DNA from: a virus
Virus record (IMG/VR): IMGVR_UViG_3300045988_060405
Span: 1 to 41,348 of that record
Reading direction: 5' to 3' (one strand)
DNA length: 41,348 bases
Each line of letters begins with the position of its first letter. The first letter of the stretch is position 1. The notes beneath the pieces were generated by a model. The model made no database searches. It was given only the letters and a program-made list of their open reading frames with translations, and was not told the origin of the DNA. Shown one piece after another: positions 6,519 through 39,766 of the stretch. Made by a program: the position numbers and the translations under genes.

Positions 6519-6695
6519 TTATCTGTCTGTTTTTCTACTGCTACATCGTTTCTTCTTATGAGCATTCTGACTAGCAAGCAATATGTTTCCATTCATAAGC
6601 CATAAGTTCCGGTTAGTATCCTGAAGACTCTTATAAATTTCTGCTATAGCCTTTAATTCTTTCTCTTCTACTGGAATGTTTTTTAAGTCTACCAT
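6519..6695 (-). CDS. First gene of the leftward early operon (58 aa)
   Basis: ATG at 6695 behind GAGGTGAAAGA. The ORF-track start at 6743 would overlap the promoter. Confidence 0.6.
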   Translation of the reverse strand: MVDLKNIPVEEKELKAIAEIYKSLQDTNRNLWLMNGNILLASQNAHKKKRCSSRKTDR

Positions 6696-6729
6696 GTCTT
6701 TCACCTCGCTTTCTTGTTCATCTGCCACT

Positions 6730-6758
6730 ATTATACGTCGCATTTAGTCATTAGTCAA
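6730..6758 (-). promoter_or_regulatory. Leftward early (lytic) promoter
   Basis: On the minus strand: TTGACT (6753-6758), 17 nt, TATAAT (6730-6735). Confidence 0.7.
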
Positions 6759-6791
6759 GAACTTTTTTGTTCATATGAGACTTTTTGTTGA
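6758..6791. promoter_or_regulatory. Operator-like repeats between the divergent promoters
   Basis: AGAACTTTTTTGTTCA (GAAC-N6-GTTC dyad, 6759-6772) and a second GAGACTTTTTGTTGA copy that overlaps the -35 of the repressor promoter. Confidence 0.4.
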
Positions 6792-6816
6792 CAATGCCAC
6801 ATTTTCATACTATAAT
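6788..6816 (+). promoter_or_regulatory. Repressor-gene promoter
   Basis: TTGACA (6788-6793), 17 nt, TATAAT (6811-6816): perfect consensus. Confidence 0.75.
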
Positions 6817-6842
6817 TGAATAAGAAAGCGAGGTGAAAAACT

Positions 6843-7229
6843 ATGATGGGTAAGCAATTGAAAATGCTCAGAAAAACGTTGGATTTAACACAGCAGGAAT
6901 TTGCTGATCGAATAGGGATAAAGAGAAACACGGTTGCTTCATATGAGACGAAAGACGACAGGGAACCAGTTGGTGCGGTTGTATCATTAATATGTAGAGA
7001 ATTTAGTGTTAATGAGGAATGGCTTCGAACTGGAGAAGGTGATATGTTTATAACACCACCAAAAAACGACCTTATCGCTAAGGCCGCTGTATTATTAGGT
7101 CAGAAGGATCCAGTTTTCGAAGCATTCGTTGATACATATAGCAAACTGGACCCTGCTAACCGTAAAGTTTTAATAGAATGGGGGCTTGATTTTCTTAACA
7201 ATTTGAAGCAGCGTTCTGAGGACATTTAA
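6843..7229 (+). CDS. XRE-family HTH repressor (cI-like; no S24 peptidase domain)
   Basis: LKMLRKTLDLTQQEFADRIGIKRNTVASYETK is a classic HTH_3 sequence. The protein is 128 aa with no Ser/Lys autocleavage domain. SD GAGGTGAAAAA. Confidence 0.85.
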   Translation: MMGKQLKMLRKTLDLTQQEFADRIGIKRNTVASYETKDDREPVGAVVSLICREFSVNEEWLRTGEGDMFITPPKNDLIAKAAVLLGQKDPVFEAFVDTYSKLDPANRKVLIEWGLDFLNNLKQRSEDI

Positions 7230-7353
7230 TTTTATCCGACCTGCTATTATCTGGATAGGAATTAGCAAAAGTATAGACAGCAAGTATATATTCTATATCA
7301 TCGCTAGCCTCTATACGTTGAATAGTTAGGATTTTTATATCATCAGTTGTCAT
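7195..7353 (-). CDS. Small protein (52 aa), candidate SOS-controlled antirepressor; its 3' end overlaps the repressor gene convergently by 35 nt
   Basis: ATG at 7353 behind GGAAAGGGAGG. It lies downstream of the LexA-box-flanked promoter at 7610-7638. Function is inferred only. Confidence 0.5.
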   Translation of the reverse strand: MTTDDIKILTIQRIEASDDIEYILAVYTFANSYPDNSRSDKIKCPQNAASNC

Positions 7354-7580
7354 AAATATGTACCTCCCTTTCCGAGAATACCAGTAAATTGTATGTACTA
7401 TACATATATTATAACACAAAATTGTTTATTTTGTATATTTTATAGTACAATAGCTATTGGCAAATTCTGGTATTTTCCATTTTTTGCCAGTATTTTTGTT
7501 CAAAAAGCACAATATTCTGAAAATGCCATGCATCAACACCGGGAAAGGAAGTATGACACATTATGTGGGATAGCAGATCA

Positions 7581-7592
7581 GAACATATGTTC
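7581..7592. promoter_or_regulatory. Cheo-type LexA (SOS) box 1
   Basis: cAGAACATATGTTCTg is a perfect GAAC-N4-GTTC palindrome. Confidence 0.75.
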
Positions 7593-7609
7593 TGTTTTGT
7601 TCTATAAAA

Positions 7610-7638
7610 ATTATATTACTATTAGGACTAAAAATCAA
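7610..7638 (-). promoter_or_regulatory. Near-consensus leftward promoter bracketed by the two LexA boxes
   Basis: On the minus strand: TTGATT (7633-7638), 17 nt, TATAAT (7610-7615). Box 2 lies just upstream of the -35 and box 1 at about +11 to +22. Confidence 0.7.
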
Positions 7639-7647
7639 CCCTTTTCA

Positions 7648-7659
7648 GAACATTTGTTC
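7648..7659. promoter_or_regulatory. Cheo-type LexA (SOS) box 2
   Basis: cAGAACATTTGTTCTg, GAAC-N4-GTTC. Confidence 0.75.
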
Positions 7660-7685
7660 TGGTGGATTTCTTACAAATTATTAAA

Positions 7686-7710
7686 CCCTCTGTGTTGGTC
7701 GCACAGAGGG
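7686..7710 (-). terminator. Hairpin (9-bp stem) with a T-rich tail on the minus strand; possible insulator upstream of the SOS promoter
   Basis: CCCTCTGTG-ttggtcg-CACAGAGGG. In the minus sense it is followed by TTTAATAATTT. Confidence 0.4.
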
Positions 7711-7853
7711 TATAAACAGACATACCGGCATAGGGGCCGATACAATATTATAGAGCACTTATATTGTATCATTTCGTGCACCTACTGTAAACCGGTATGG
7801 TGTATTTTTTGCGCTTAAAATAAGGCTTTTAGGCCAGAAAGAAGGATGATGCA

Positions 7854-9071
7854 ATGAGTATTCAGGAAAGTAATTATATATCAAAAAAGACCGGGAAAAC
7901 AAAAACGAGGTATTTCGCCAATGTATGGTACGCTGAAGAGAAGCGGGCCATTACCGGCCCCATGCGCGATTCCAAACCAGAAGCCAAAAAGGACGAGGCA
8001 AGAATCATACTGGAGATCGAGGCCGGCCGGGTCCCTGCTCCGAAGACGAAAAAATCCGAAAAGGTGGACGAGGTATATAAATTATGGCACGAGTCCACGA
8101 AACCACCAGTATATGCTAACAGCACATGGAATGTATACGCACAGTTTTACGGCGATTATATACAGGAAGTGTTCGGAGACAGAGCCATATCTGATATTAC
8201 AAGTATACATATACAGCGGTATGTAAATGCCATGAAGGAAAAGCATAGCCCAGAGACAGTAAATAAATGCATCACGGTTCTGGTAAACTTATTCGGATTT
8301 GCCATTGATCCGCTTAAGTGCATTACCAGTAATCCAGTAAAAGGTATTAAACGGTGTAAAGTGCCGAGAAAAAAGAAAGTCACCTGGAACGATGACATAG
8401 TCACTTATTTTCTCGATCTGCCAGACGTCAAGTCTTCACATTATTATCCCATGTTCGTGATCTCCGCTCTCCTGGGCGCACGGCCCGGGGAAGTCTGCGG
8501 CCTGCGAGAAAACGGTTTAAACAGCAAGCCCACGTATATGATCGATTTTGAAAAAGGGTATGACAATTGGGAAGTGGATACCGATCTTAAAACCGGCGGA
8601 TCACACCGGACGCCGCCGATCCCCAAATATTTATACGATATCATTCACCGGCGCCTGATCTGGAAACGGAAAAATCATATGGTAGATCACTCGTGGGGAG
8701 ACAATGATTACCTTTTTGTAAGCCAAAATGGAAATCCGATCAAACCACATCAGTACGGAGAGGCTTTTAAACGGCTTTTAAGGGCACATAACCGCCAGAT
8801 GGAGGAATACAAGAAAGAACACGAAGAACTGCCAGAAGGGGCATTTCTGTTGCCTGAAATCACATTGTACGGACTCCGCACAAGCTTCGCCACAAATAAT
8901 ATGCGACGTTGCCCGAATGCCGCTCTTATCTCCTCAGTAATGGGTAACAGCCCTAAGACGCTTATGCAGTTTTACGCGCAGGCCGAAACTGATATGCAGA
9001 TGGATTTAATTAACGGATACGCTTCAGGGAAGCTCGAGGCAAGAGAAAAGGGGGTCAGAAATGCACTATGA
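7854..9071 (+). CDS. int: Tyrosine integrase
   Basis: Box I ALLGARPGEVCGLR, box II LYGLRTSFAT...VMGNSPKTLMQFYAQ. It lies adjacent to attP. Confidence 0.9.
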   Translation: MSIQESNYISKKTGKTKTRYFANVWYAEEKRAITGPMRDSKPEAKKDEARIILEIEAGRVPAPKTKKSEKVDEVYKLWHESTKPPVYANSTWNVYAQFYGDYIQEVFGDRAISDITSIHIQRYVNAMKEKHSPETVNKCITVLVNLFGFAIDPLKCITSNPVKGIKRCKVPRKKKVTWNDDIVTYFLDLPDVKSSHYYPMFVISALLGARPGEVCGLRENGLNSKPTYMIDFEKGYDNWEVDTDLKTGGSHRTPPIPKYLYDIIHRRLIWKRKNHMVDHSWGDNDYLFVSQNGNPIKPHQYGEAFKRLLRAHNRQMEEYKKEHEELPEGAFLLPEITLYGLRTSFATNNMRRCPNAALISSVMGNSPKTLMQFYAQAETDMQMDLINGYASGKLEAREKGVRNAL

Positions 9072-9185: not shown

Positions 9186-9231
9186 AGCGCGAGACGGGGA
9201 TCGAACCCGCGACCCCAACCTTGGCAAGGTT
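9186..9231 (-). other. attP core: 3' half of a tRNA-Gly(GCC) gene (anticodon loop through acceptor end)
   Basis: The minus strand reads AACCTTGCCAAGGTTGGGGTCGCGGGTTCGATCCCCGTCTCGCGCT. This is the TTGCCAA anticodon loop, variable loop, T-arm and 3' acceptor strand. There is no 5' half upstream, so it is a fragment and not a gene. Confidence 0.8.
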
Positions 9232-9331
9232 ATTTACTGCATTTAATAGGAAGTAACACACGCAAAAAGTGGCTTAAAATCGAGGTTTTTCAAAAAGTAT
9301 GTAGCGTATAATACCATTTCAAACACATATC

Positions 9332-38728: not shown

Positions 38729-39766
38729 TTACGGTAATACTTCCGGAAAGTCTGTTATACTCATCTGCCCCTGTGCCTCCCATGTGGTCCATGGTATCCC
38801 TACATAATCCAACACTTCAGCCATACCCAAACCGCCCTTACATACTGGTTTCATGCAGAAATCATATTGATGCGGGTAAGAGGTTGCCATACGTTGGAAT
38901 CTGTTAGGCTCTGGCTCCAGGTGTGCACCGAATGCGCAAAACATGCAGCCGGTCCGCTGCTCTCCAGTGAGGTAATACTCGCCGCATGGAGTCTGTTTGA
39001 TATCGCCGTACACAGAACAAATTTCAAGATCGTTTTCCACAACGTACCGTAGCACATCCTGTTTTGTCCAGAATCCCATAGGCTGGCTCTTGATTGTCTT
39101 GCCATCGTAGACGTTGCAGCCGGTATGTGCATATTGATGCGCCCTTTTAAAGCCTTCGTCCTGGGTGATCCCAATGTATGGATAACGTCCAGTTTCCCTT
39201 ACAAACTTATCAAATGGCTTCTTTTTCATCATTTCACAACACTTGTCCGTGGTCTCAAACGGTGCATTAATCAGAAATTGCCACTTGTCCGCCAACTTTC
39301 CAAAACTTCCTCTTTCATCTCCATTCAAGAGATAATTTCTGTGCCTGTCCGACAAATTACCATGTCGTAGCTTATACACCTTTCTGGCTGTTTCCTTGCT
39401 TATGAGCGGATATCCATATGTAGTAATAACCTTACGGAATGTGATCCGCTTACCGTCTTTATCGACCGGATAAATTTCCCGAAATTCCCCACTGGCCTGC
39501 CGCGCAAACTTTACAATTTCAGGGAATTCTAATCCTGTGTTGGAAAATACCGCCGGCACATCGTTTCCGACGGTCTCCCGAATCAGATGTAACAGGACCC
39601 GGCTATCCAGTCCTCCAGAATAACTCAGGTATACCATTCCTCCCCAGTTATCATACCATTCACGGATTCGTGTTTTGGTAAGCTGAAGCTTTATTTCCCA
39701 TGGTAGGTATTTCCTCTGGCCGAACTGCCAGTCATTAAGTTTTAAATCGTCCTCTTTAATAAACAT
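38729..39766 (-). CDS. PP-loop / PAPS-reductase-family enzyme (IbrA/DndC-like) with a Cys-rich C-terminus
   Basis: VYLSYSGGLDSRVLLHL is the SGGxDS PP-loop. C-terminal CGEYYLTGEQRTGCMFCAFG. Confidence 0.8.
   Translation of the reverse strand: MFIKEDDLKLNDWQFGQRKYLPWEIKLQLTKTRIREWYDNWGGMVYLSYSGGLDSRVLLHLIRETVGNDVPAVFSNTGLEFPEIVKFARQASGEFREIYPVDKDGKRITFRKVITTYGYPLISKETARKVYKLRHGNLSDRHRNYLLNGDERGSFGKLADKWQFLINAPFETTDKCCEMMKKKPFDKFVRETGRYPYIGITQDEGFKRAHQYAHTGCNVYDGKTIKSQPMGFWTKQDVLRYVVENDLEICSVYGDIKQTPCGEYYLTGEQRTGCMFCAFGAHLEPEPNRFQRMATSYPHQYDFCMKPVCKGGLGMAEVLDYVGIPWTTWEAQGQMSITDFPEVLP

What the first reader, a model, noticed from the sequence alone, without database searches (positions are those of the whole stretch)
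7195..7710. SOS-box-flanked strong promoter drives a 52-aa ORF and antisense transcription into the repressor gene: candidate LexA-controlled antirepressor module
Two perfect Gram-positive LexA boxes lie between the repressor and integrase genes: AGAACATATGTTCT at 7580-7593 and AGAACATTTGTTCT at 7647-7660. They bracket a minus-strand promoter, TTGATT-17-TATAAT (7638->7610). One box sits just upstream of the -35 and the other at about +11 to +22.

The transcript runs about 250 nt to a well-SD'd 52-aa ORF (7353->7195). The last 35 nt of this ORF overlap the 3' end of the repressor gene on the opposite strand, and no terminator is obvious before the repressor coding region. The repressor has no autocleavage domain, so induction probably needs an antirepressor. 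LexA-controlled antirepressors are established for coliphage 186 (Tum) and the Gifsy prophages, but this small protein resembles none I can recognise. The antisense component would add a second layer of control.
Basis: partly seen in the sequence, partly recalled or inferred. Interest (0 to 1): 0.72.

Follow-up and report, generated by a model that had tools for sequence, protein, structure and literature searches.

The report
SOS-controlled small antirepressor gene in phage
A gut-bacterial phage carries a tiny gene, placed tail-to-tail with its repressor gene and guarded by two binding sites for the host DNA-damage sensor LexA; it most likely encodes a small protein that switches the repressor off after DNA damage, a design recently shown in Bacillus phages and seen here in a large unannotated family.

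Summary
The only two GAAC-N4-GTTC sites in the 41-kb window lie 67 bp apart and bracket a minus-strand TTGATT-17-TATAAT promoter. That promoter points at a 52-codon ORF with a strong ribosome-binding site. The ORF overlaps the last 35 nt of a 128-aa XRE repressor gene that has no cleavage domain.

The ORF is a genuine gene. Seven further diverged lineages keep a 40-55-codon reading frame, and for six of them I measured pS 0.43-0.92 against pN 0.27-0.46. As a subfamily it matches a broader small-protein family (HHalign 94%, E 1.6e-7). That family has at least 485 clusters at 50% identity, no Pfam or PHROG match, and no functional name from any source.

Family members sit convergent to relatives of the repressor that share a 'SVNEEWL' motif. 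Thirty of 34 family-bearing loci have a LexA box (at most one mismatch) within 200 nt upstream of the small ORF.

The closest known system is AimX-AimC of Bacillus arbitrium phages (bioRxiv, November 2025). Here there is no arbitrium system and no detectable homology to AimX. Antirepressor activity is inferred, not shown.

Features not covered by the precedent are a conserved leader with motifs complementary to the ribosome-binding site, a conserved second promoter-like site, and a terminator inside the repressor coding sequence.

Verdict: new member of a known kind, moderately interesting.

The parts
6843..7229 (+). Prophage repressor gene. 128 aa: an XRE HTH domain (residues 1-63), a linker, and a three-helix C-terminal domain (74-125). 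No autocleavage domain.
   Evidence: Pfam HTH_3 E 2.6e-10 and PHROG transcriptional repressor. AF2 model pLDDT 85. Foldseek hits match through the HTH domain only and include the phi106 repressor-AimX complex 9sf2_A.
7195..7353 (-). 52-aa small ORF (candidate antirepressor). Conserved core S.D[IL].Y[IL].AV[YF][ST]F[AS]..YPD[KR][ST]. The last 35 nt overlap the repressor gene.
   Evidence: Seven further diverged lineages keep the frame. pS 0.43-0.92 against pN 0.27-0.46, measured on the window and six of those lineages. HHalign of the subfamily against the wider family gives 93.9%, E 1.6e-7.
7363..7373 (-). Shine-Dalgarno region GGAAAGGGAGG, 9 nt upstream of the ATG.
   Evidence: Conserved in L061 and L069.
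7408..7437 (-). Proximal promoter-like site P2: TATACA-18-TATAAT with a TG extension.
   Evidence: The TGnTATAAT island is conserved in L061 and L069 while the flanks diverge. I did not see it in L064, L065 or L072 (visual inspection). Activity unknown.
7541..7574 (-). Conserved pyrimidine-rich leader motifs. ATCCCAC lies within GCTATCCCACA (7574->7564). CTTTCCC (7547->7541) lies within CUUCCUUUCC (7551->7542), which is complementary to the SD.
   Evidence: (I23). In the window the predicted SD pairing probability is 0.83, against 0.63 +/- 0.11 when the upstream leader is shuffled (1 of 100 shuffles reach it). Folding in other lineages is inconsistent.
7580..7593 (.). LexA (Cheo) box 1, AGAACATATGTTCT, at about +11 to +24 of the promoter.
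   Evidence: A box at the equivalent position occurs in L061, L036, L040 and L026.
7610..7638 (-). LexA-bracketed sigma-A-type promoter, TTGATT-17-TATAAT.
   Evidence: The same box / -35 / -10 / box layout occurs in L061, L036/37, L040/41 and L026.
7647..7660 (.). LexA (Cheo) box 2, AGAACATTTGTTCT, ending 8 nt upstream of the -35 hexamer. Start-to-start spacing to box 1 is 67 bp.
   Evidence: Spacing is 66-68 bp in five lineages.
7675..7710 (-). Minus-strand intrinsic terminator: CCCTCTGTG-N7-CACAGAGGG followed by TTTAATAATTT. It lies directly upstream of the LexA promoter and would insulate it from leftward read-through.
   Evidence: I8. Conserved in L061, where the U-run is cleaner.
7055..7088 (-). 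Terminator-like hairpin plus T-run for the small-ORF transcript, embedded antisense in the repressor coding sequence.
   Evidence: Present at 106-134 nt past the small-ORF stop in the window, L061, L069 and L072. One compensatory stem change (A-T to G-C) separates the window from L061.
6730..6816 (.). Divergent switch promoters: the repressor promoter TTGACA-17-TATAAT (6788-6816, +) and the lytic promoter TTGACT-17-TATAAT (6758->6730, -). This is the presumed target of the repressor.
   Evidence: Repeats CTTTYTTGTTCAT in this region are candidate operators.

Best explanation
This is an SOS-input module of a temperate phage of gut Clostridia, probably Lachnospiraceae.

**In the lysogen (inferred).** The 128-aa HTH repressor holds the leftward lytic promoter shut. 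Host LexA occupies two Cheo boxes that bracket a strong minus-strand promoter. An upstream terminator shields that promoter from read-through.

**After DNA damage (inferred).**
1. RecA-stimulated LexA self-cleavage frees the promoter.
2. A transcript with a roughly 250-nt leader is made. It encodes a 52-aa protein and probably ends at a hairpin inside the repressor gene.
3. The small protein binds the repressor, most likely its three-helix C-terminal domain. This blocks oligomerisation and DNA binding and so de-represses the lytic operon.

**What is shown.** The sequence elements exist and recur in diverged phages. The small ORF is under purifying selection. It belongs to a large small-protein family found next to LexA boxes. 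Its similarity tracks the repressor's C-terminal domain.

**What is inferred.** LexA binding, damage-inducible transcription, and the protein-protein interaction.
For: 1. The two boxes are the only two GAACN4GTTC in the window, and they bracket the promoter. GAACN4GTT[CT] is the LexA operator reported for Bacillus and Clostridium species (PMC4234289).
2. Thirty-four of 60 loci held carry a small ORF of the family (the remaining loci include 11 near-identical copies of the window module, which the HMM does not detect). Of those 34, 26 have an exact box and 30 a box with at most one mismatch within 200 nt upstream. Only 55 exact boxes occur in the 415 kb of those loci, and at least 46 of them (28 in the 26 family loci, 18 in nine window-like loci) lie in this promoter position.
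3. Two recurrent promoter designs appear. In one, the box fills the -35/-10 spacer. In the other, two boxes flank the promoter 66-68 bp apart.
4. Window-like small ORFs from the neighbourhoods of diverged repressors (L061, L064, L065, L069, L071, L072, L076) keep a 40-55-codon frame. Synonymous sites are near saturation while amino acids are conserved.
5. The subfamily matches the wider family at HHalign 93.9%, E 1.6e-7. The family has 485 clusters at 50% identity with E <= 0.001, almost all 32-90 aa.
6. Small-ORF similarity correlates with repressor C-terminal-domain similarity (Spearman 0.61, Mantel p 5e-4) and not with HTH similarity (partial correlation -0.05). The window and L001/L042 differ in the HTH half (similarity 0.39) but share the C-terminal domain and small ORF (0.94 each).
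7. In relatives without LexA boxes the same small ORF follows a 65-aa HTH gene and a palindrome (L004, L051, L076; L005 has the HTH gene), so the input varies while the output stays the same.
8. Experimental precedent exists. AimX is a 29-80 aa ORF convergent with, and sometimes overlapping, the short repressor gene aimC. In phi106 a LexA site lies just upstream of it. [quoted passage not shown] Sar is a LexA-controlled small antirepressor in SPbeta-like phages.
Against: - No experiment or complex model was possible.
- The small ORF has no detectable similarity to AimX, Sar or any solved chain, nor to the repressor's C-terminal domain. The repressor resembles AimC only through its HTH domain.
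- The small ORF physically abuts the part of the repressor gene that encodes the C-terminal domain. Linkage alone could therefore produce the co-variation signal.
- In the window the ORF starts about 225 nt beyond box 1, not the 30-60 nt seen in most relatives. The leader contains a conserved extended -10 (P2). If P2 were constitutive, an antirepressor would be made without SOS.
- The long leader is predicted to sequester the SD, which would work against efficient translation of the LexA-driven transcript.
- The single-sequence AF2 model of the small ORF is uninformative (pLDDT 55).
Confidence: 0.63

Rival explanations
1. The small protein is SOS-induced but acts on something other than the phage repressor. 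It could modulate LexA or RecA, as GIL01 gp7 or Listeria AriS do, or serve excision or host takeover.
For: LexA control and coding constraint are equally compatible with this reading. Small phage proteins that bind LexA are known (PMC4551915, listed). No direct evidence links the small ORF to the repressor protein.
Against: - The gene sits convergent to the repressor gene in every locus where I identified both, whatever lies on its other side: integrase, lysin or an HTH gene.
- Its similarity tracks the repressor's C-terminal-domain class.
- In some relatives the input is a different regulator rather than LexA, which fits a switch output better than an SOS modulator.
Confidence: 0.14
2. The boxes do not control the small ORF in this phage. 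The ORF is transcribed from the proximal promoter P2 (7437->7408). The LexA-flanked promoter makes a mainly non-coding structured RNA. Alternatively, the palindromic boxes serve as the terminator of the repressor transcript or gate integrase expression.
For: - P2's TGnTATAAT is a conserved island in the window, L061 and L069.
- The long leader is predicted to occlude the SD.
- Both boxes are scored as weak plus-strand terminator-like hairpins. Box 1 is followed by TTTTGTTCT.
- Integrase starts 194 nt beyond box 2.
Against: - In L064, L065, L071 and most family loci there is no P2, and the LexA-box promoter is the only one upstream of the small ORF.
- In many relatives the module lies next to lysis genes, not integrase.
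- No terminator separates the LexA promoter from the small ORF.
- The two-box geometry of 66-68 bp around a leftward promoter is conserved.
Confidence: 0.1
3. The effector is RNA. Convergent transcription or antisense pairing from the LexA promoter across the 3' end of the repressor gene lowers repressor expression, and the peptide is incidental.
For: - The small ORF overlaps the repressor gene by 35 nt.
- The probable terminator lies about 140-175 nt inside the repressor gene.
- No terminator is evident after the repressor stop codon, so the two transcripts may overlap extensively.
Against: - The peptide sequence is under purifying selection across lineages in which the DNA is saturated.
- Some relatives have a gap of 40-130 nt, or whole genes, between the repressor gene and the small ORF.
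- In phi106 and phiW23, recoding the overlap or mutating the aimX start showed that the protein, not the RNA, is the effector.
Confidence: 0.07
4. It is a LexA-controlled type I toxin of the TisB, DinQ or SymE kind, with a structured leader and an antisense partner.
For: The locus has LexA boxes, a long structured 5' leader predicted to hide the SD, a small ORF and an antisense overlap.
Against: - The peptide is charged throughout.
- Its longest uncharged run is about 13 residues (YILAVYTFANSYP), too short for a membrane helix (sequence).
- Family members are amphipathic and acidic or basic.
- The obligate partner across loci is a phage repressor gene.
Confidence: 0.03

Closest known systems
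AimX-AimC antirepressor-repressor pair of 'extended arbitrium' Bacillus phages (phi106, phiW23, BMBtp14, Wbeta, Waukesha92). Kabel et al., bioRxiv 10.1101/2025.11.23.689978; PDB 9sf2 and 9iaq.
   Same: - A short XRE repressor of 80-140 aa with no cleavage domain, built from an HTH domain plus a small helical C-terminal oligomerisation domain.
- A 29-80 aa ORF convergent with the repressor gene and sometimes overlapping its 3' end (30 bp in phi106, 35 nt here).
- A LexA site just upstream of the small ORF in phi106.
- The small ORFs are highly divergent and track the repressor.
- A divergent lytic operon on the other side of the repressor.
   Different: - No aimR-aimP upstream. Only a terminator, then integrase.
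- LexA appears to be the sole recognisable input, through two boxes 67 bp apart.
- The host clade is gut Clostridia, not Bacillus.
- No detectable sequence similarity of the small ORF to AimX, and similarity to AimC only through the HTH domain.
- A leader of about 250 nt with conserved motifs and a second promoter-like site.
- Kabel et al. report very few close AimC/AimL homologues outside arbitrium systems.
LexA-controlled antirepressors of Gram-negative phages: coliphage 186 Tum, Gifsy GfoA/GfhA, N15 AntC (from my own knowledge; Lemire et al. 2011 is cited in PMC12629997).
   Same: The logic is the same. The repressor cannot be cleaved, a LexA operator sits on the antirepressor promoter, and SOS leads to the antirepressor, which leads to induction.
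   Different: Those proteins are unrelated and larger. They use the CTGT-N8-ACAG type of SOS box, and the genes are not convergent or overlapping with the repressor gene.
Sar-SroF of SPbeta-like phages (bioRxiv 10.1101/2025.11.27.690993).
   Same: A small, LexA-box-controlled antirepressor in Gram-positive phages, specific to its cognate repressor.
   Different: The repressor SroF has an integrase-like fold. Sar is a dimeric DNA mimic of about 72 aa. The genomic layout differs.
Transcription-factor plus small-ORF modules of Vibrio linear plasmid-like phages (Silpe et al., Nature 2023, PMC10432266) and SinI-SinR.
   Same: A small protein inactivates an HTH repressor. In relatives of this window (L036, L051, L076 and others) a separate small HTH gene and a palindrome precede the small ORF, which resembles a transcription-factor plus small-ORF input.
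   Different: The window itself has no such transcription-factor gene. There is no sequence relationship. SinI-like mimicry of the repressor's C-terminal domain is not supported (HHalign 0.2%).

Membership tests
LexA-controlled antirepressor module (functional class: Tum, Gifsy, AntC, Sar, phi106 AimX) | A LexA operator overlaps or flanks the promoter of the antirepressor gene. | tested here: met
   Two perfect GAACN4GTTC boxes, at +11 to +24 and just upstream of the -35 hexamer. The arrangement is conserved in relatives. Actual LexA binding was not tested.
LexA-controlled antirepressor module (functional class: Tum, Gifsy, AntC, Sar, phi106 AimX) | The prophage repressor lacks a RecA-stimulated autocleavage (S24) domain. 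| tested here: met
   128 aa, HTH_3 only. The AF2 model shows an HTH domain plus a three-helix domain.
LexA-controlled antirepressor module (functional class: Tum, Gifsy, AntC, Sar, phi106 AimX) | The gene product binds the repressor and abolishes operator binding, and its expression induces the prophage. | not testable with these tools
Only indirect co-variation with the C-terminal domain is available.
LexA-controlled antirepressor module (functional class: Tum, Gifsy, AntC, Sar, phi106 AimX) | Transcription is induced by DNA damage. | not testable with these tools
   No expression data.
AimX-AimC extended arbitrium system | aimR-aimP signalling genes lie immediately upstream of, and co-directional with, the small ORF. 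| tested here: not met
   Upstream of the promoter there is only a terminator (7710->7675), then the integrase gene on the other strand.
AimX-AimC extended arbitrium system | A short single-HTH repressor (80-140 aa) with a helical C-terminal oligomerisation domain, and a convergent 29-80 aa ORF that sometimes overlaps it. | tested here: met
   compared with the description.
AimX-AimC extended arbitrium system | Sequence or structure homology to AimC and AimX. | tested here: not met
   9sf2_A matches through the HTH domain only (phmmer E 0.068; Foldseek E 1e-2, TM 0.45). The small ORF and its family profile hit no PDB chain. The C-terminal domain alone could not be searched.
AimX-AimC extended arbitrium system | A divergent cro-like HTH gene (aimL) heads the lytic operon. 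| tested here: inconclusive
   A divergent first gene of 58-74 aa exists (6519-6743, -), but it has no HTH or other family hit.
Unannotated small-protein family (consensus xxEEY+QKIIELIxKxDDxxxLKxIY), convergent to 'SVNEEWL' repressors | Profile-level sequence similarity. | tested here: met
   The window ORF alone is weak (HMM 3.5 bits; HHalign P 9e-4). Its subfamily of 7 lineages against the family gives HHalign 93.9%, E 1.6e-7 over 34 columns starting at the first Met.
Unannotated small-protein family (consensus xxEEY+QKIIELIxKxDDxxxLKxIY), convergent to 'SVNEEWL' repressors | Position convergent to, and downstream of, a homologous XRE repressor, with a LexA-box promoter upstream. | tested here: met
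Type I toxin (TisB, DinQ type) | A hydrophobic transmembrane peptide. | tested here: not met
   Charged residues occur throughout, and the longest uncharged run is about 13 aa (sequence).

The most novel reading that the evidence does not exclude
The antirepressor gene is gated at two levels.

- The conserved leader motifs (ATCCCAC and CTTTCCC) resemble the 16S anti-SD sequence and are complementary to the ORF's own ribosome-binding site. They would form a cis translational lock on the LexA-driven transcript.
- The conserved proximal extended -10 (P2) would provide a second, LexA-independent input.

Induction would then need SOS plus a second event, such as leader processing, an RNA or protein that opens the lock, or relief of convergent repressor transcription. 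Together with the terminator embedded in the repressor coding sequence, this would be a new regulatory layer on small antirepressors, and it is not described for AimX or Sar in the parts of those papers I read.
Probability: 0.2. Interest if true: 0.62.

Novelty: new member of a known kind. Interest (0 to 1): 0.5.

Why it matters
Most prophages of human-gut Clostridia have short repressors with no cleavage domain, and how they sense DNA damage is largely unknown.

This locus and its relatives point to a very small protein that gene callers and annotation usually miss or leave unnamed. The family has at least 485 clusters at 50% identity. It appears to be a widespread SOS-wired (and sometimes otherwise-wired) output that inactivates the repressor.

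If confirmed, this would have three consequences:
- It would extend the AimX and Sar concept, just discovered in Bacillus, beyond arbitrium systems and beyond that genus.
- It would give a simple sequence signature for predicting which gut prophages are SOS-inducible: an 'SVNEEWL'-type repressor, a convergent small ORF and a Cheo box.
- It would supply orthogonal repressor-antirepressor pairs for engineering.

Tried and rejected
- **AF2 of the small ORF alone.** pLDDT 55, with one helix at residues 20-32; uninformative.
- **SinI/SinR-type mimicry** (small ORF as a paralogue of the repressor's C-terminal domain). HHalign 0.2%; rejected at sequence level.
- **Rfam.** Nothing at gathering thresholds in the whole window. 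Permissive mode gave only sub-threshold hits, for example rliF at 29 bits against a threshold of 60. No tRNA or tmRNA.
- **Leader homology.** The 226-nt leader has no BLAST similarity to other loci apart from the LexA boxes. Only short motif islands align with L061 and L069.
- **SD sequestration as a conserved structure.**
  - In the minimum-free-energy fold the SD pairs with the pyrimidine motif in the window and L065, and partly in L072.
  - It pairs elsewhere in L061, L064 and L069.
  - Only the window exceeds the shuffled control, so I do not claim a conserved fold.
- **Direct homologue search with the 52-aa ORF.** Only three near-identical clusters were found. Close relatives are at least 95% identical over 7001-7900 and therefore uninformative. 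Diverged homologues had to be reached through repressor homologues.
- **Other collections.**
  - The viral scan added one lineage, L076.
  - The genome scan gave host names only: Lachnospiraceae, Roseburia, Acetatifactor and other Clostridia.
- **Other small minus-strand ORFs in the leader** (35 and 37 aa). They have no SD and no family resemblance, so I rejected them.
- **The 141-aa plus-strand ORF at 7393-7818.** It is truncated in L002/L003 and looks like composition junk; rejected.
Full report
**1. Context**

The window looks like a circularly permuted, complete temperate phage genome of about 41 kb. Almost all genes are on the minus strand. They include ERF, DUF1351, HNH nucleases, a lysin and structural genes.

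Only two sizeable genes are on the plus strand. One is a 128-aa XRE repressor (6843-7229) and the other a tyrosine integrase (7854-9071). The integrase is followed by a 3' fragment of a tRNA-Gly gene, which is probably the attP core.

The repressor and a leftward lytic operon start from back-to-back near-consensus promoters at 6788-6816 (+) and 6758->6730 (-). Relatives of the repressor in named genomes come from Lachnospiraceae, Roseburia, Acetatifactor and other Clostridia.

**2.

- GAACNNNNGTTC occurs exactly twice in 41,348 bp, at 7581-7592 and 7648-7659. Shuffles give 0.33 on average, and 5 of 100 shuffles have two or more.
- The two sites are 67 bp apart and bracket a minus-strand TTGATT-17-TATAAT promoter at 7638->7610.
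- GAAC-N4-GTT[C/T] is the LexA operator reported for Bacillus subtilis and clostridia (PMC4234289).
- The 52-codon ORF runs 7353->7195. It has GGGAGG 9 nt upstream of the ATG and overlaps the repressor gene by 35 nt.
- The repressor has no cleavage domain. Pfam finds an HTH domain only. The AF2 model (pLDDT 85) shows five HTH helices, a linker and a three-helix C-terminal domain.

**3. The small ORF is a real, conserved gene**

It has no Pfam or PHROG match. A direct search of 5.8 billion proteins found only three near-identical clusters. Contigs carrying those are at least 95% identical to the window from 7001 onward, so they say little.

Searching with the repressor instead gave 3,107 homologues. 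I then looked up the contigs that encode progressively more distant ones. Convergent small ORFs at the same position turned up:

- L061: MTIDDMKSIIKKHVEDSSDLKYIIALYSFSVSYPDKSR...
- L064: MDISIYQKRIMELVETSQDIDYLVAVYSFASNFPDKSK...
- L065: MDVNSYKKEICNLVKESQDIEYLKAVFTFAVNYPDKSK...
- L069, L071, L072 and L076 as well.

Across the window and six of these lineages (L061, L064, L065, L069, L071, L072) the synonymous difference is 0.43-0.92 per site. The non-synonymous difference is 0.27-0.46 per site. Where dN/dS can be estimated it is mostly 0.15-0.5 (range 0.02-0.51). The peptide, not just the DNA, is therefore under selection.

**4. It belongs to a large unannotated family wired to LexA**

Loci fetched with the repressor from viral contigs usually have a 32-48-aa ORF convergent to the repressor. 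An example is MENEEYRQKIIELINNCNNNHWLKTIYSYVKTLLK.

- The window ORF alone matches this family only weakly: 3.5 bits, and a pairwise HHalign P of 9e-4, though aligned in register from the first Met.
- The 7-lineage window-like subfamily matches it at HHalign 93.9%, E 1.6e-7.
- The family has no Pfam domain, and sources call it only 'hypothetical'.
- A profile search of 1.84 billion cluster representatives found 485 with E <= 0.001, almost all 32-90 aa.

Of the 34 loci carrying the family, 26 have an exact LexA box and 30 a box with at most one mismatch within 200 nt upstream of the small ORF. Only 55 exact boxes occur in the whole 415 kb of loci. At least 46 of them lie in this promoter position: 28 in the 26 family loci and 18 in nine window-like loci.

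Two designs recur:

- One box fills the spacer of a TTGACA...TATAAT promoter (L007, L010 group, L064, L065).
- Two boxes flank the promoter, as in the window. The start-to-start spacing is 66-68 bp in five lineages whose intervening sequences differ (window, L061, L036/37, L040/41, L026).

In several relatives without LexA boxes the same small ORF follows a 65-aa HTH gene and a different palindrome (L004, L051, L076; L005 has the HTH gene but I did not identify a palindrome there). Some loci have both kinds of input (L036, L040, L067). The output is constant while the sensory input varies.

**5. Link to the repressor**

Across 19 lineages, small-ORF similarity correlates with similarity of the repressor's C-terminal domain (Spearman 0.61, Mantel p 5e-4). 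It does not correlate with HTH similarity (0.17; partial correlation -0.05).

The window and L001/L042 are a natural example. Their HTH halves differ (similarity 0.39), but the C-terminal domain, small ORF, boxes and integrase are nearly identical. The breakpoint is at 7001, inside the repressor gene.

This fits a C-terminal domain plus small ORF functional unit. However, the small ORF physically abuts the coding sequence of that domain, so linkage alone could give the same pattern.

**6. Comparison with known systems**

Kabel et al. (bioRxiv 10.1101/2025.11.23.689978) describe the closest known system.

- In about 75% of Bacillus arbitrium systems, a short HTH repressor (AimC, 80-140 aa, no cleavage domain) is inactivated by a 29-80-aa protein, AimX.
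- AimX is encoded convergent to aimC and sometimes overlaps it. The overlap is 30 bp in phi106, where a LexA site lies just upstream of the ORF.
- Recoding the overlap and start-to-stop mutants argue that the antisense RNA matters little.

The companion paper shows LexA-box control of the small antirepressor Sar in SPbeta-like phages. Tum, the Gifsy antirepressors and AntC are the classical Gram-negative analogues (my own knowledge).

The window shares the AimX-AimC architecture but not its membership criteria:

- There is no aimR-aimP.
- The repressor resembles the phi106 and BMBtp14 repressors (PDB 9sf2, 9iaq) only through the HTH domain.
- The small ORF hits no solved chain.
- SinI-like mimicry of the C-terminal domain is not supported.

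**7. Features specific to the window lineage**

*(a) The leader.* The leader is about 250 nt long, against 25-125 nt in L071, L064 and L065.

- It folds more stably than shuffles (z = -3.5).
- CUUCCUUUCC (7551->7542) is complementary to the SD, GGAAAGGGAG (7373->7364).
- The predicted SD pairing probability is 0.83, against 0.63 +/- 0.11 when the upstream leader is shuffled (1 of 100 shuffles reach it).
- The motifs ATCCCAC and CTTTCCC recur early in the leaders of several lineages. CTTTCCC is in all six examined (window, L061, L064, L065, L069, L072). ATCCCAC or a close variant is in five of them, and not in L072.
- Predicted SD sequestration is not consistent across lineages, so this remains a lead.

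*(b) A second promoter-like site.* An extended -10 (TGnTATAAT, 7416->7408; 'P2') is a conserved island in the window, L061 and L069. I did not see it in L064 or L065 on inspecting their leaders. If active, it would be a LexA-independent route, which sits awkwardly with a simple antirepressor model.

*(c) An upstream terminator.* A minus-strand terminator (7710->7675) directly upstream of box 2, conserved in L061, would insulate the promoter.

*(d) An embedded terminator.* A terminator-like hairpin plus T-run lies antisense inside the repressor coding sequence (7088->7055). It recurs in L061, L069 and L072, with one compensatory stem change. This would give an antisense overlap of about 140-175 nt with the repressor mRNA.

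**8. Verdict**

LexA control of a conserved small protein gene is strongly supported. The antirepressor role is the best-supported mechanism (about 0.63), but it is inferred from architecture, co-variation and experimental precedent in another clade.

This is a new member of a known kind: a LexA-controlled small antirepressor with AimX-like architecture. It is notable for belonging to a large unannotated family in gut Clostridia phages and for extra regulatory features in its leader.

Noticed in passing
window 6696-6720 and 6817-6841: A 25-nt inverted repeat (92% complementary) makes the 5' UTR and SD regions of the divergent lytic and repressor genes near mirror images. Repeats CTTTYTTGTTCAT (6709, 6762) and GAAC-N6-GTTC (6759-6772) lie between and around the two promoters and are candidate repressor operators.
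   Followed up: no
window 7739-7748 / 7761-7770 (with promoter-like sites + 7717-7746 and - 7791->7763): A perfect 10-bp inverted repeat, GATACAATAT/ATATTGTATC, carries two face-to-face TACAAT -10 hexamers about 100 nt upstream of the integrase gene. The minus-strand one would give a short RNA ending at the 7710->7675 terminator. This may be integrase regulation or a small RNA.
   Followed up: no
window about 9186-9234: A 3' fragment of a tRNA-Gly gene lies just downstream of the integrase gene (BLAST hits to annotated tRNA-Gly). It is probably the attP core. ARAGORN finds no complete tRNA.
   Followed up: partly
L004, L005, L036, L037, L040, L041, L051, L067, L076 (upstream of the small ORF): A roughly 65-aa XRE HTH gene ending in ...DLxDSPYK lies upstream of the small ORF. 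In most of these loci it is followed by a short palindrome (GTCCCA-N4-TGGGAC, TGTCCA-N6-TGGACA or TCCACATATGTGGA). It occurs with or without LexA boxes and looks like an alternative or additional sensory input to the same small-ORF output.
   Followed up: partly
L006 4004-4807; also P0054, P0059, P0061-63, P0082 (about 196-267 aa): Some relatives of the repressor carry two to four tandem copies of the HTH-'SVNEEWL' unit in a single polypeptide.
   Followed up: no
window 7001 (breakpoint inside the repressor gene): Near-identical phages (L001-3, L042-49) share everything from 7001 rightward but have a different HTH half and immunity region. This is a recombination junction between the DNA-binding and C-terminal halves of the repressor.
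   Followed up: partly
window 38729-39766 (-): A PAPS-reductase-domain protein (PF01507) is encoded among the phage genes.
   Followed up: no
P0169 (1,123 aa): The top hit of the small-ORF family profile is a 1,123-aa protein with 15 matched stretches. It may be a repeat protein or a low-complexity artefact.
   Followed up: no
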